In this document: positions 36,401-42,400 of the stretch, in pieces | Layout of the letters: each line of letters starts with the position of its first letter | Numbering within the stretch: the stretch's first letter is position 1 | From: an uncultured cyanobacterium | GTDB taxonomy: Bacteria; Cyanobacteriota; Cyanobacteriia; Pseudanabaenales; Pseudanabaenaceae | Assembly (NCBI GenBank): GCA_963703315.1 | Contig: OY969811.1 | Span: 1,120,001-1,184,000 of the forward strand | DNA length: 64,000 nt | Direction: 5' to 3' | Program-made: the position numbers

Positions 36401-39400
36401 TTTTGCAGAATGTTCAGCAAATTGTCTAGCTGCTAACAACTCCTGTTCTTTGCGTCTAAGCTCAGTAATATCACGACCAACATAAACAAAATCATGGGCA
36501 GATGCTGGATCATGTTCAAGTCGATGATTAGATATGGGTGAGCAAGAAAAAGATATTAGAATTTCTTCTTTTGCCTTAGATAAACAAAGTATTTCGATAT
36601 TTTCAAGATAGCGATCGCCTTCTAATTTGTGAGTATCATGAGCCGCAAAATCTAGATATTTTTGATGGATTAAATCAAGCTGCTCCGAATCATGAAATAG
36701 CAAAGAAATTGAATTATTAATTAACTCATCTTGAGTATAACCAAACAGATGTATAGTTGCAGGATTTATCGTTTTAATTATGCCTAGTCGATCAGTTACA
36801 ATCAAGGCATCTGCCATTGCCAAAACAACTTTATCAATATATTTTTTTGACTTTGCTAATTCATTTGCAAGTAGCTCAGATTCATTAGCTCTTTGCATTA
36901 AATCCTGCGACATAGTCATTATTTCAGTTGCATCTTCAATACAAATAATAATATTGCCATCAGATTCTTCTAATTCATTAGTAGCAATAATATAAAGATT
37001 AAAGTAAATAGGTGATTTTGAATTATTGGAACGACAAATACCTTTAATTTCAAAACTAGTAAGTTGGTTAAGCCAAATATTATTAAAAACTTCTTCTAAT
37101 CCAACTGTCTCTGGAAATACTTGGCGAATATCTTTATTGAAAAGTGGCTCATAAGGACATTCAGAAAATCTTGCAGCACCATAGGAAGTATCAATGATCA
37201 CAAACTCTCGATCAATCACAATGAATGATCTCTCTGAATTCGTAAGAAGTTTTTTGAGAAGTTTTGACTGTTTCATAGCTACTAACGATACTAAAAAGTA
37301 TAGGTTTTATGATTCTTGTGCGATATTTTTATTGACAAAAATGATGGTATTTGCGGTTGAGGGTTGTTAATAATGGAATTATTTTAGCATTAGCATTTTA
37401 CGTGCTAGTGTTTGGAATATTTGGTCAACTCCTTCTCCTGTTTTGGCAGATGTTTCCCTTACTAGGGTATTGAGAGCAGCAAATTCATGCACTATCGGTT
37501 GAAGGAAACCTTCTCTTTCTTGAACTCCGATTAAATCAACTTTATTCAGAGCAATTATTAAGTTAGATTGAGGATTTACTGTTTGAAAAAGTTGAACATG
37601 ATCTTTAAGGTTTTGTATACTTGATTTTCTCGTTACATCTGCAACTATGAGCGCTCCCTTTGCCCCTTGCAAGTAACTAGGTGCAATCCCTTTAAAACGG
37701 GTACTACCTTCGATATCCCAAATCACTAACTGTAATTGTTTCAATTCTCCATCATCGAGTCGAGAACTATCTACAGAAGCATCAATGGATACTAGTTTAC
37801 GAGAGATTTTTACACCAACTGTAGACAGGTATTTATCACTAAATTGGCGATCAACAAATTGACGAATCAGACTAGTTTTGCCAACACCAAAATCGCCGAT
37901 AAGACATATTTTTTGAGAAATTACTTTAGAAGGAGCAGACATTTAATTAGATACAGATAATTAGATACAGACTTTTACACCAAAACTAAAAATGGCGTAG
38001 CCATTTTTAGTTTAAAAACCCTTACTGGGTTTGTTTTTTAATTCACAAATTTTTAATTCACAAAAATGTTGTCACACTTTCGTGAATTGGTATTACTTTA
38101 GCGTAGGCTGAAACTCTACCCACCTTGCTGCTTGGTTAGGGGCTTGCTGAATAGATGAATCTATTATCCCAGAAATATGTAAGCGTTTAGCATTTACCCC
38201 TCTTTGCAATAGGGCATCACGCACTGATTGCGAACGTTTCATGCCTAGTTGAAAGTTCGTTGCCAGATCACCTAAGTTATCACTCTTTGCCAAAATTTTG
38301 AGGTTATAGTCTGGATACATATCTAGAAAAGCTTTGACTTCCACTAGTTTTTCTAGTTCTATAGGTTGCAGCACTGTCACCCCCAATGAAAAGTAAATCC
38401 GCGTAGATAATTTGGGAATAACAATAGCAGCAGCGTTACTAACTGAAGTAACTCCAGAGATTTTAGTAAATGTCTGTGTAATCTTGGGGATCATGCTGGG
38501 CTGCTCGATTTGACCTGTAATCGTGATTTGCCCATTTTGGAACTGACTACTGATTCTTACGCCTTGAGTATAGTTAAGGGCTTTGGTGAGACGTTGAACC
38601 TCATTAGCAACCAAGATTGGTTCAGGGGGAACATTCACAGCATAGATGTTGTTATTAATTTTGTCGGTGGTGATTTCTGACTTTTCCGACTTGGTAGTCG
38701 CGATCGCCACTTGTAAGGCGCGATCGCGTAAATCTTGATTGGGTAATTTACCTGTTAACTTGAGGCGATCGCCATTGGCGGCAACATTTAAACGATAGAC
38801 TGCTAGTTCAGGTGTACTGGCAAAAGCTTCTAAGACTTTGGCTTCAAGTTGGCGATCGCGCTGAAATTGATATTGATAAAAGCCAATGGGAATAAAAATC
38901 AAAGCAAATGTCGCTAAGCCGATCCAAAGTAAAGTTTTTCCTGATTTTTTTGCCGACTTAGACTGATCGACCTCCATGAGAGTTTGCAGTTCGATTTCTG
39001 CCTCAGACGGAATTGTTTCAGGATCACCATCAAATTCCTTGAGGCGATCGCCATAGACTTGAATAATGCGACCAAATACATCACGAATTTTGGCAACAAA
39101 TATAGGCGCAGGTTCCCCATCAATGATTACGGCTAAATAACAATATCCTGCCACCTCTAGCAAAATCTTGGAGCCGCTATAGTTAATGGCATCCAGTTCT
39201 GTATTACTTTCTGACCGCGACATACATTCACTAGCAAAGCTGCGAATCGCAGTTAACATCCCCGCCAACATATCCGAATCGATTGGCTCAGCTTCAGAAT
39301 TGAGATCGCTCTGTTGCAGATCGATCATCACTAAGCCAGATAAATTATGAATTAAAAATATTGCTTTTATCTTAAATGGTACTGATTCTTTGAGAATTAA

Positions 39401-42400
39401 TTCAGCTTCAGACACGCCTTGCATCTTGGCGCGAAATTTACGCTGTACGCCTTCGACACTAAAGGTTTGTTCGACTTTTTGGTTAATAGAGCGAATTGCT
39501 TCTGCAAAATATTTGGCGATCGTATTGCCAATCACAGGATAGAGTGCGTCCACCATCGATTCCCGTTCGAGGACAATTTGACGTTTAATCGCTGAACCCA
39601 TCTCTGGGGCTAGGGCATCAACGATCGCATCACGGTCAAGGCGAATTTGTTCACGAATAGCGGCTCCCATTTCTGGCGCGATCGCCTTCGCAATCTCATC
39701 GGGACTATTGCGAATTTGTTCACTGAGAGCATTAGGCAAAATATCAGCGATCGCTCGGCTCATCGACACCCGATCTAGTTGCGATCGCTCAAAAATTACC
39801 TCTGCAATAATTGGCATAATTGCCTGACACATCTCCTCTCTAGATTGATTAGCTTTAAGATTGAGAATCTCCGCGATAATTGGCAACAAAAGCTGGACTA
39901 ACTCTTGAGGTTGGTATAACTTTTTCTCTAATTGAGCAACACGTTCCCTAACATTCTCAATCTCTATTGGAATGCTATCTTGATCATTACCAATTTTTGT
40001 CAGTTGTGAACCAAGACTGCTCAGCCCAAGCGATGCATTTTGAATTAAGCTCTCTAAACCCTCAATCTTATTCTGTAAGTCTGGACTATTGACTTGCTGC
40101 TCGACGATGCCTAACTTTTGTTCGACCGATATTTTAAAACTGCGTAGCTCTTCTAATTCTGGACTAACTAAAATATCTTGCAATATATGAAGGGCTTGAT
40201 CGTCTTCCGATGATGCCAAAATCTCTTCAGATGAACGCTCAAAAGATTTTTCTGTCAGATCTAGTTGAGGAGAATCTAGAGATCTTTCATCACCTAAAAG
40301 CAATGTATGTATAAGATTAATAGTTTCTAATTCCTCATCTTTTTTGTTAAATGACAAGTATTCTGCATTATCCGAAGAACTAGAATTTTCTTGCTCAAGG
40401 TTGATAATGCTTTCCTTTTCTAGACTATTTGCTTGATTATTTGCTTGGATAGATGGAAGATCCCTTAAAAAGGGTAGCTCATCTAAGAGGCTAGGAAAAG
40501 GATAAACTGGTGGCGATCGCTTTAGGTTTGGAACCTCTACATCTGATGCTGATCTAACCTCTAGGGAGAGCGAACTCGTTTCTAGCTTGTTGTTTCTAGA
40601 GTTATTTTTAGAATTAATATCTAGAGTATTTAAAGTGACTATCTGTTCTTGGTTCTGTGGATTTTCAGGCTTTTCAGAATCCATGATTTTTAGATCAGAG
40701 AGCAGAAGCAACAACTTCTCAACATCATTGAGAGAGTTATTCTGAGCTTTACTATTTTTCTCTGATCTATCAGACATAAACTACTTCCCAAAAAGTTGCG
40801 ATGTTGCTTCAATTCCAGATTATTTAACCACCGCCCACAATCGTGACAATTTCTAGGCGATCGCTATTTTGAATAATCGTTTGTTCCCATAACTGACGAT
40901 GTAAAATTTCGCCATTATACTCCACAGCCACTAAGCGAGGATTGAGTCCTAAATATTTCAGCAATTCGACCATAGTCAGATCTGGCTCACAGGTGCGATT
41001 ATCACCATTTACTTGTAACGTAATCATAAATCTAAAATCTAATTTTAATTTCATTAACCTATTGCTTTAAGTAGCTAGGCATAAGTATAAACTTAAACTC
41101 TAGAAGCTTGTGCCGTCCGCGTAGCGGGCAGCACAAGCTTTGGTTTTGGATTTTAACTATGCTGAGCTACTTATGAAGATTATTTTTTGCTTTGTCAAAA
41201 AATAATCTTCACAAAATGATCTACATCTATCATCCCAGAAGTTCTATACTTCAGTACTAAAACGATACCTGTGTGTCTATGTCTCAACCTACACCAGCAA
41301 ATCCAGACTTACCAGCGATCGCTTCGGTAGATCCCGAAACCCATACCGAAATTAATCCTGAGCTAGGACTTAGCGAAGCTGAAGTCACAGATAGACATCG
41401 GCGTGGTGATATCAATGTCATTGTGCTGCGGTCAAGTCGTACTTATAAGGACATTTTTCAAGAAAACGTTTTTACCTTATTTAACATTACCTTTGGTTTT
41501 GTGTTAGTCCTGCTTATGGCGCTTGGACAGTTTACCGATGCGATCTTTTCGGGATTTTCGGTATTTATGAATATTCTGGTGGGTGTAGCACAGGAAATTC
41601 AGGCAAAGCTAACCTTAGATAAATTAGCTTTACTATCAGTGCAGAAGGTCAAAGTCCGACGCGATGGCAAATCACAGGAGATTCCTGTCGGTGAGGTGGT
41701 GCGCGATGACTTGATCGAGCTAAATCCAGGCGATCGCGCTCCTGTTGATGGTGCAGTCTTGATTTCTCAAAACGTAGAAATGGATGAATCCTTACTCACA
41801 GGCGAATCCGATCCTGTGGCTAAGCAGATTGGCGATATTGTGTTGTCGGGGTCTTTTTGCTTGGCAGGGAGTTGTGTATTTAGCGCCGATAAAATTGGCA
41901 ATGAAAGCTATGCGGTGAAGCTATCACAGTCATCACGGGTTTACAAACGAGTCTTTACGCCGTTACAAAAGAAGATTGATATTCTCGTAGAAATTTTTGT
42001 GCTGGTGCTGATTGTGGCAGGCTTTTTGCATATTGCCTCTAGCCTCAACTCAGGACGGACAATGGTGGATACAATTCGCTATGCTTCCGTAATTATTAAT
42101 AGTTTTGTGCCAGCAGGTTTAGTGCTTTCCATCAGTGTTGCCTTTGCGATCGGCGCAGTGGCAATTAGTAAAAAGCGGACATTAATTCAAAAAATCAATG
42201 CCGTTGACTCCATGAATAGCGTGCGGATTCTCTGCACTGATAAAACAGGAACCCTTACCCAAAATAAACTAGTAGTCAAGGAAATCGTGCCTTTAGGCGA
42301 TACCGATGAAGACTCGTTGCGCGAGCTAATTGCCCTCTATACAAACCTAATGGGCAGTCAAAATAGCAGCGCAAAGGCGATGGCTACTTATACTGATAAA

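What a model noticed while it worked through the whole genome (the two positions that open the first line are those of the whole stretch)
37379..40777. A bacterial longin domain: the unknown domain of the membrane partner of a Rab-like (Rup) GTPase
The conserved 'domain of unknown function' in the membrane protein encoded next to the Rab-like Rup GTPase (g01116, residues about 467-605) is a true longin domain (beta-beta-alpha-beta-beta-beta-alpha-alpha), not a roadblock domain. So a bacterium pairs a Rab-like GTPase (g01115) with a longin domain anchored by a transmembrane helix and periplasmic BON/OmpA domains, the pairing known from eukaryotic Rab GEFs and Asgard archaea.
Evidence so far: Model from a 44-sequence alignment: pLDDT 88.2, longin element order. 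Against 48,161 PDB chains the first 21 matches are longin-domain proteins (VAMP7 Z 12.5, rmsd 2.6 over 118; sedlin 12.3; Sec22 12.0; synbindin 12.0; Lokiarchaeote longin 11.0; Mon1-Ccz1 10.2); roadblock proteins follow at Z 10.0 or less, MglB 8.7; Foldseek agrees. 2,269 cluster representatives match the domain. g01115 is 37% identical to yeast Ypt5 and lies directly downstream; same order in 2 of 3 close metagenome loci, the third is cut.
(Added by a program. Inside this text positions count along the whole contig: contig position 1,120,001 is position 1 of the stretch shown here. "Call 12" and the like, gene names such as g00115 and contig names such as C1 are that model's own, and its searches are not shown. 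The text may have been shortened before it was handed on; [...] marks where a part breaks off. The agent that wrote the report below was given it as the finding of a first reader that could run no searches.)

Follow-up and report, generated by a model that had tools for sequence, protein, structure and literature searches.

The report
Bacterial longin partner of Rab-like GTPase
A membrane protein in a known but uncharacterised bacterial signalling operon carries a longin-fold domain, a type of GTPase-docking domain thought to be limited to eukaryotes and Asgard archaea, and is predicted to dock the Rab-like GTPase encoded next to it; the same gene pair also turns up in Thermoplasmata archaea.

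Summary
Confirmed and extended. The operon is Wuichet's Group 1 Rup system (2014); the fold of its 'unknown domain' was not found in print. [quoted passage not shown] Longins align through the last helix; roadblocks stop before it, even when the upstream helices are included. The score lead over roadblocks is about 1 Z or less, not 21 straight longin hits, so topology carries the call. All 31 of 201 cyanobacterial-phylum genomes with the domain have a Rup; 35 of 44 copies sit beside one. New: clear homologues (HHalign 99.85%) occur in Thermoplasmata as cytoplasmic tails of membrane proteins, directly upstream of a Rab-like GTPase in 22 of 80 loci; weak links run on to Asgard longins. A domain dimer plus GTPase model scored 0.61 against best control 0.31 (mark met by 116 of 157 solved, 2 of 215 mismatched pairs), through helix alpha1; this may echo solved complexes. 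Best reading: a membrane-anchored longin platform, probably GEF-like, linking envelope state to a kinase or cyclase. Binding, GEF activity and a single origin with eukaryotic longins remain unshown.

The parts
38093..40777 (-). 894-aa single-pass membrane protein: low-complexity/coiled N-terminus, conserved helical stalk (about 290-465), longin-fold domain, one transmembrane helix, periplasmic BON, BON-like and OmpA domains
   Evidence: same architecture in 80 of 80 GTDB loci
38966..39379 (-). Longin-fold domain, residues 467-604: beta1 469-477, beta2 483-488, alpha1 501-519, beta3 530-533, beta4 536-543, beta5 546-553, alpha2 558-580, alpha3 591-601
   Evidence: AlphaFold2 models, fold searches; alpha1 is the most conserved element and the predicted GTPase face
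39383..39910 (-). Conserved helical stalk (residues about 290-465) with roughly 23-residue repeats, upstream of the longin domain; no Pfam family
38876..38935 (-). Transmembrane helix (residues 615-634) preceded by a lysine-rich stretch, so the longin domain is inferred to be cytoplasmic
   Evidence: hydropathy scan; positive-inside rule (established knowledge)
38168..38857 (-). Periplasmic BON (641-692), BON-like (731-781) and OmpA peptidoglycan-binding (795-870) domains
   Evidence: Pfam
37379..37942 (-). Group 1 Rup small GTPase, 187 aa; G1-G5 motifs present, G3 reads DIEGS (no catalytic Gln), no C-terminal cysteine
   Evidence: only stand-alone Rup-type match in the genome
34769..37276 (-). 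Hybrid histidine kinase (conserved N-terminal domain with Gln128, PAS, HisKA, HATPase, two receivers): the output gene of the operon
   Evidence: N-terminal domain in 68 of 80 loci; Gln128 in 71 of 78 rows
37975..38092 (.). Palindromic intergenic repeat between the membrane-protein and GTPase genes; a genome-wide repeated element, not part of the system
   Evidence: hairpins z -5.9; about 40 long copies among 94 matches in the genome; gap is 0 to 22 bp in three close relatives

Best explanation
The protein is a single-pass envelope receptor whose cytoplasmic longin-fold domain dimerises into a platform at the inner face of the membrane and docks the co-encoded Rup GTPase on its alpha1 face, as MglB, TRAPP and Mon1-Ccz1 do. 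Periplasmic BON/OmpA domains tie it to the cell wall, so it gives a GTPase without a lipid anchor both a location and an input. The platform most likely promotes nucleotide exchange (about 0.5 given binding); the GTP-loaded GTPase then acts on the downstream kinase or cyclase, whose conserved N-terminal glutamine may supply the catalytic Gln the GTPase lacks (Wuichet's proposal). Shown here: genes, architecture, conservation, co-occurrence, synteny, archaeal homology. Predicted: fold (about 0.95), dimer-GTPase complex (about 0.8). Inferred: GEF direction, signal, output coupling, common descent with Asgard and eukaryotic longins (about 0.65).
For: Fold. Co-occurrence: domain in 31 of 201 genomes, all 31 with a Rup, Rup in 33; 35 of 44 domain copies within about 2 kb of a Rup (counted); Rup in 71 of 80 named loci. 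Two bacterial clades and one archaeal clade recur in both the domain tree and the tree of the adjacent GTPase, all six branches starred. Archaeal homologues: HHalign probability 99.85, E 6e-31, 128 columns; GTPase directly downstream in 22 of 80 loci, archaeal by LSU rRNA on L200 and NCBI names. Complex: score 0.61, best of 3 controls 0.31; the mark was reached by 116 of 157 solved complexes and 2 of 215 mismatched pairs (counts hold only roughly for this job); runs share at least 73% of contacts, partner pLDDT at least 76; interface is alpha1 of both copies plus the beta1-beta2 turn against beta1, switch I, Trp75 and switch II of the GTPase. 6 of the 13 positions conserved across bacteria and archaea lie in the 22-residue interface, Fisher p 0.006. 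GEF over GAP: no GP motif and no Arg in the beta1-beta2 region in 0 of 62 rows, the marks of GAP longins in PMC12290439.
Against: The complex pass can come from likeness to solved roadblock/longin-GTPase complexes (one search says so), and conservation may itself steer the model, so the enrichment is not independent. 9 of 44 cyanobacterial copies and 39 of 60 archaeal loci with at least 700 bp downstream have no GTPase nearby; two genomes keep Rup plus kinase with no domain found. No sequence link from the bacterial domain to any longin: no PDB or Pfam hit. Identity and rmsd are better to roadblocks (9-17%, 1.9-2.9 A) than to most longins (5-17%, 2.5-4.9 A). MglB, which also lacks a catalytic finger, acts as a GAP platform, so motif absence does not prove GEF. 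No expression or biochemical data.
Confidence: 0.68

Rival explanations
1. Convergent topology: the domain is a roadblock that was circularly permuted independently in a prokaryotic lineage. It works like a longin but shares no longin ancestor with Asgard and eukaryotic longins.
For: Roadblocks tie with longins in Z and fit the core better (MK-D1 Roadblock3 Z 11.5, rmsd 1.9 over 102, 16% identity). Weak Pfam Robl_LC7 hits in 5 of 23 and 3 of 45 archaeal members (best E 3e-4). One archaeal member is named 'roadblock/LC7 domain-containing protein' by NCBI. L173 fuses a true roadblock to the domain, a possible permutation intermediate.
Against: Pfam Fuz_longin_1 hits in 1 of 23 and 3 of 45 archaeal members (best E 1.5e-4, below cut-off) and Intu_longin_1 in 1 of 23. 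Nearest named ESM clusters to an archaeal member are Asgard proteins of 140-143 aa, scores 0.87-0.90, one with Fuz_longin_1 on 22% of members. A solved Lokiarchaeote protein is titled Roadblock-Longin, the L173 architecture.
Confidence: 0.3
2. It binds the GTPase but as an MglB-like GAP platform or a passive membrane anchor/effector, not a GEF; the receptor keeps the GTPase off, or merely localises it.
For: Same predicted geometry as MglA-MglB; the GTPase lacks the switch II Gln in 81 of 81 bacterial pairs where a motif was read or absent (80 motifs read, none with Gln after the G3 Gly) and so needs help to hydrolyse; no lipid anchor, so a tether is needed.
Against: No GP motif or Arg finger (0 of 62); a candidate trans-Gln lies in the output protein instead; archaeal partners keep their own Gln (9 of 9) yet use the same domain.
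Confidence: 0.35
3. The domain does not touch the GTPase: it is an adaptor or sensor for another partner (the coiled-coil protein or the kinase N-terminus) and the gene order reflects a shared pathway only.
For: Orphan copies (9 of 44; 39 of 60 archaeal loci); many eukaryotic longins (SNAREs, adaptins) among the top hits do other jobs.
Against: Adjacency kept in bacteria and archaea although every other operon member differs; complex model passes with the domain-replaced control at 0.12.
Confidence: 0.12

Closest known systems
Group 1 Rup system (Wuichet and Sogaard-Andersen 2014, PMC4316618)
   Same: This is that operon: DUF-TM-OmpA protein, Rup GTPase without G3 Gln, output protein with an invariant N-terminal Gln.
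   Different: [quoted passage not shown] It names no archaeal version of the neighbourhood in the sections read. Here the coiled-coil gene lies 120 kb away.
Eukaryotic longin-dimer GEFs: TRAPP (Bet5/Trs23-Ypt1), Mon1-Ccz1-Ypt7, CPLANE
   Same: Element order and fold (Z 10.6-12.1); predicted GTPase docking across the alpha1 helices of a dimer.
   Different: Homodimer inferred, not heterodimer; built into a single-pass receptor with peptidoglycan-binding domains; GTPase not prenylated; output is a kinase or cyclase, not vesicle traffic; about 10% identity.
MglB-MglA (bacterial roadblock GAP platform)
   Same: Five-stranded core (Z 9.8-10.6), small-residue helix face, adjacent genes, predicted binding mode.
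   Different: Permuted topology (C-terminal alpha3 instead of N-terminal helix); partner belongs to the Rab/Ras-like Rup clade, not MglA; membrane-anchored.
Asgard longins (Lokiarchaeote Roadblock-Longin 8yqg; NPRL2-like longins fused to two-component domains)
   Same: Fold (Z 9.9-10.0); nearest named ESM clusters; a roadblock-longin fusion also in L173; Liu et al. report longin fusions to two-component domains.
   Different: MK-D1 GTPase genes generally do not lie in operons with longin genes (PMC10933270), whereas this family does; found outside Asgard.

Membership tests
Longin domain (fold) | [quoted passage not shown] | tested here: met
   DSSP on two models; definition from PMC3747258
Longin domain (fold) | C-terminal alpha3 lies where longin alpha3 lies | tested here: met
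   Longins align to model residues 141-148 and 204-212, through alpha3; on predicted models only
Longin domain (descent) | Sequence or profile homology to curated longin families | tested here: inconclusive
   No hit for bacterial members; sub-threshold Fuz_longin_1 for 4 archaeal members, best 22.4 bits against cut-off 26.1; ESM leads to Asgard clusters
Roadblock/LC7 (MglB-like) | N-terminal helix before beta1 occupying the bottom face, domain ends after the helix following beta5 | tested here: not met
   Roadblock chains align from their residue 16-27 onward and only to model alpha2, also with upstream helices present; archaeal members have a transmembrane helix or nothing upstream
Longin/roadblock GTPase platform | Dimer that binds a small GTPase on the alpha1 face | tested here: inconclusive
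   Model passes: 0.61 against best control 0.31; 116 of 157 solved, 2 of 215 mismatched reach the mark; prediction only, may echo solved complexes; dimer itself was imposed and not scored
Longin GEF (TRAPP, Mon1-Ccz1) | Accelerates nucleotide exchange | not testable with these tools
   needs biochemistry
GAP longins (FLCN, NPRL2, SMCR8) | GP motif before beta2 and an arginine finger | tested here: not met
   GP in 0 of 62, Arg at 477-482 in 0 of 62 bacterial rows; definition from PMC12290439 section 9. Other positions for an Arg finger were not examined in 3D
Group 1 Rup system | Rup lacking G3 Gln, beside DUF-TM-OmpA gene and an output gene with invariant Gln | tested here: met
   against PMC4316618 sections 17-18
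Group 1 Rup system | Coiled-coil gene in the neighbourhood | tested here: not met
   homologue (28%, E 9e-10) lies at G000:C1:1281736, outside the window; present in the operon in other genomes
Rab GTPase (eukaryotic) | C-terminal cysteines for prenylation; switch II Gln | tested here: not met
   no Cys tail and no G3 Gln in the bacterial set; best PDB hits are nonetheless Rabs

The most novel reading that the evidence does not exclude
A longin-plus-Rab-like-GTPase switch is an old prokaryotic module, older than or independent of Asgard archaea, kept as operons in cyanobacteria, other bacteria and Thermoplasmata. There it forms single-pass receptors (peptidoglycan-binding or Ig-like outside, longin inside) that act as GEFs and couple the envelope to kinases and cyclases; the eukaryotic longin Rab-GEFs descend from this module, so longins are not an Asgard-eukaryote signature.
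Probability: 0.35. Interest if true: 0.88.

Novelty: new variant of a known kind. Interest (0 to 1): 0.74.

Why it matters
Longins were stated to be absent from prokaryotes (PMC3747258) and later became an Asgard-eukaryote signature; who regulates Rup GTPases has been open since 2014, and Asgard GTPases cannot easily be matched to their longins because the genes are not in operons (PMC10933270). This family gives a matched longin-GTPase pair in culturable cyanobacteria and rhizobia, with a predicted interface and point mutants, so both questions become directly testable. It also suggests a class of prokaryotic single-pass receptors that signal through a Rab-like GTPase.

Tried and rejected
Sequence and profile searches of PDB found no longin or roadblock for the domain (only designed helical proteins). 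Pfam and NCBIfam have no family for the bacterial domain. The idea that the conserved upstream helix completes a roadblock was tested with a longer model and rejected. A phylum survey meant for Pseudomonadota returned cyanobacterial genomes, because the 'Rhizobium' MAG used as centre groups with them; so no genome-level count exists outside the window's phylum, and L024 and L042 are not taken as proteobacterial. Five archaeal loci had no held genome, so no archaeal genome-level count. No real homologue in viral contigs (one 47-residue match) or phages. No RNA holder was listed. Promoter and terminator counts did not exceed shuffles. The intergenic hairpin is a genome-wide repeat, rejected as part of the system. 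Tree-distance correlation between domain and GTPase (rho 0.70 overall, 0.50 within the main clade) is not taken as evidence of contact, since neighbouring genes share history. The trees are unrooted, so no donor or direction of transfer is claimed.
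Full report
The locus. The window comes from a 4.57-Mb genome whose closest named relatives at this locus are Pseudanabaena (80% identity in the domain). On the minus strand lie an 894-aa protein (38093-40777), a 187-aa small GTPase (37379-37942) and an 835-aa hybrid histidine kinase (34769-37276). Pfam finds BON (641-692), a weak second BON-like domain and OmpA (795-870) in the first, Ras/Roc in the second, PAS-HisKA-HATPase-receiver in the third, and nothing on residues 467-604. 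One hydrophobic helix begins at residue 615 after a lysine-rich stretch, so the unknown domain is inferred to be cytoplasmic. [quoted passage not shown]

The fold. [quoted passage not shown] Against 48,161 chains the first six rows are longins (VAMP7 Z 11.9, rmsd 2.8 over 119; Sec22 11.5, 2.8 over 124; TRAPP 11.4, 3.0 over 126; Mon1-Ccz1 11.1; CPLANE 10.8), but an Asgard roadblock is seventh (10.7, 2.2 over 103) and MglB reaches 9.8-9.9; Foldseek mixes the two families. The aligned ranges do: longins run through alpha3, roadblocks stop at alpha2 and leave their own first helix unmatched. Because the slice cut off conserved upstream helices that might complete a roadblock, I refolded residues 400-611 with 149 sequences (pLDDT 83.5). 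Roadblocks again aligned only from beta1 to alpha2 (for example 9jue model 69-179, Z 11.5, rmsd 1.9 over 102), longins through alpha3 (CPLANE Z 12.1, rmsd 3.1 over 127). alpha3 is filled in 68 of 68 aligned family rows, though it is the least conserved element (0.31 against 0.70 for alpha1). The topology is longin.

Pairing in bacteria. A single-sequence search found 1,583 representatives at E 1e-3 or better. Of 80 named GTDB loci (the best 80 of 569, nearly all cyanobacteria), 80 keep the BON/OmpA part, 71 have a Rup and 68 the output N-terminal domain; 2 of the 9 without a Rup end at a contig edge. In an even sample of 201 genomes of the phylum, 31 have the domain and 33 a Rup; all 31 have both, and 35 of 44 domain copies lie within about 2 kb of a Rup (counted by eye). 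Against this: 8 copies are orphan 1,205-aa paralogues in one genus, one genome has split the operon, and two genomes have Rup plus kinase with no domain found; related genomes are not independent. A second clade (about 27% identical to the first) pairs with its own Rup clade; it includes Sericytochromatia and Nitrospirota by source names and an intact four-gene operon with an adenylate/guanylate cyclase on a Mesorhizobium plasmid.

Beyond the finding: archaea. One hit carried three copies of the domain; its relatives are named Thermoplasmata and Methanomassiliicoccales, and the ESM Atlas top hits are archaeal (0.91-0.92). Bacterial and archaeal profiles align with probability 99.85, E 6e-31 over 128 columns. 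In 80 metagenome loci (best 80 of 554) the domain is mostly a C-terminal tail just after a transmembrane helix (73 of 78 with enough upstream sequence), often behind DUF11, PKD or Ig-like extracellular domains (6 proteins scanned, 5 with such domains). A Rab-like GTPase follows directly on the same strand in 22 of 80 loci, or 21 of the 60 with at least 700 bp downstream; none of the 28 long single-gene loci with that much downstream sequence has one. The 22 reduce to 9 pairs below 70% identity. Archaeal origin: an archaeal LSU rRNA on L200, Elp3 and type II MetAP neighbours, and 'Rab family GTPase [Thermoplasmata archaeon]' in 3 of 10 clusters looked up, one more named Methanobacteriota/Euryarchaeota, six without an organism. 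Trees of 39 domain-GTPase pairs give the same three groups in both proteins, all starred; they are unrooted and show shared history, not contact. Archaeal partners keep the G3 glutamine (23 of 26), bacterial ones do not, and only the bacterial operons carry the output protein whose glutamine (Gln128 here) is kept in 71 of 78 rows, which fits Wuichet's trans-glutamine proposal.

Descent. No bacterial member hits a longin or roadblock family or PDB sequence. Archaeal members give sub-threshold Pfam hits to both: Robl_LC7 in 5 of 23 and 3 of 45, Fuz_longin_1 in 1 of 23 and 3 of 45 (best E 1.5e-4). The nearest named ESM clusters to an archaeal member are Asgard proteins of 140-143 aa (0.87-0.90; one with Fuz_longin_1 on 22% of members), a lead only. 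L173 fuses a true roadblock to the domain ahead of three GTPase genes. One origin with Asgard and eukaryotic longins is likelier than not (about 0.65); an independent permutation stays open.

The complex. Two copies of the domain with the GTPase scored 0.61 against a best control of 0.31 among 3; the mark was reached by 116 of 157 solved complexes and 2 of 215 mismatched pairs, counts that hold only roughly for this job; runs share at least 73% of contacts and partner pLDDT is at least 76. The interface is alpha1 of both copies (residues 500-517), the beta1-beta2 turn (477-483) and 583-587, against beta1, switch I, Trp75 and switch II of the GTPase; Ile46, Trp75 and Tyr90 correspond to the Rab hydrophobic triad (label recalled, not from a call). 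This is the top-face geometry described for MglB and TRAPP, so the pass may come from likeness to solved complexes. Six of 13 positions conserved across both domains of life lie in the 22-residue interface (p 0.006), not independent of the model. [quoted passage not shown]

Mechanism. Most likely a wall-anchored receptor presents a longin dimer under the membrane, docks a GTPase that has no lipid anchor, and loads it with GTP; the GTPase then acts on the kinase or cyclase, which may also switch it off. Fold and complex are predicted; direction, signal and output are inferred.

What is in print. Ten full-text searches found no paper assigning this domain a longin fold or pairing it with Rup; one search was swamped by unrelated words. 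PMC3747258 states there are no longin domains in prokaryotes; PMC3521125 (passages) derives longins from roadblocks in eukaryotes; PMC4917890 (passages) names Lokiarchaeum as the first prokaryote with longins but lists 'Longin/Roadblock' jointly as present in bacteria; PMC10933270, 10.1101/2020.10.19.343400, PMC4915359 and 10.1101/2024.02.28.582541 (passages) cover Asgard longins, archaeal Rab-like proteins (including Thermoplasmatales, with no mention of longins) and the place of Rup1 among Rab/Ras-like GTPases. [quoted passage not shown] Klinger 2016, De Franceschi 2014 and the Kostlbacher 2026 catalogue were not seen, and no supplements were read; any of these could already list this family.

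Verdict. Known operon, new fold assignment, new archaeal branch with the same pairing, and a testable interface: a new variant of the longin/roadblock-GTPase platform. Interest 0.74.

Noticed in passing
L173:562-3360: Roadblock fused to this longin-fold domain (Robl_LC7 E 9.6e-10), followed by three tandem Rab-like GTPase genes; same architecture as the title of Lokiarchaeote structure 8yqg.
   Followed up: partly
L124:4700-11611, L128:746-8706, L133:202-6655: Arrays of three to four membrane-protein genes, each ending in the domain, upstream of a GTPase in Thermoplasmata-type contigs: could give heterodimeric longin platforms.
   Followed up: no
L161:1429-1707 and relatives: The archaeal partner GTPases carry a conserved C-terminal helical extension of about 95 aa with no Pfam family; one paralogue (L128:13348-14169) has a MarR-like tail instead.
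   Followed up: partly
P0101 (2,171 aa), P0170, P0172: Large soluble archaeal proteins with helical repeats, an Ig-like unit and up to three copies of the domain; neighbours unknown.
   Followed up: no
window 37975-38092: Palindromic intergenic repeat with about 40 long copies in the genome, REP/MITE-like.
   Followed up: partly
window 39383-39910: Conserved helical stalk with about 23-residue repeats and no Pfam family, upstream of the domain in all 80 bacterial loci; a candidate dimerisation or signal-relay element.
   Followed up: partly
G000:C1:1281736-1282215: Homologue of the operon's coiled-coil gene lies about 120 kb from the window.
   Followed up: no
L092, L093, L101, L102: Rup plus output gene without the membrane protein nearby; in L092 and L093 (G153, G068) the domain was not found in the genome.
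   Followed up: partly
L200:1737-1939: Group I intron match inside an archaeal LSU rRNA (64.6 bits, gathering 50).
   Followed up: no
L042, L024: Records titled Rhizobium and Acetobacteraceae carry cyanobacterial-type copies; the L042 genome groups with cyanobacteria in the phylum search, so its title looks wrong.
   Followed up: partly
window 29275-34750: HlyD-type adaptor, cellulose-synthase-like GT2 with PilZ and a GH10 hydrolase converge on the operon's kinase gene: a c-di-GMP-controlled polysaccharide locus that could be a downstream target.
   Followed up: no
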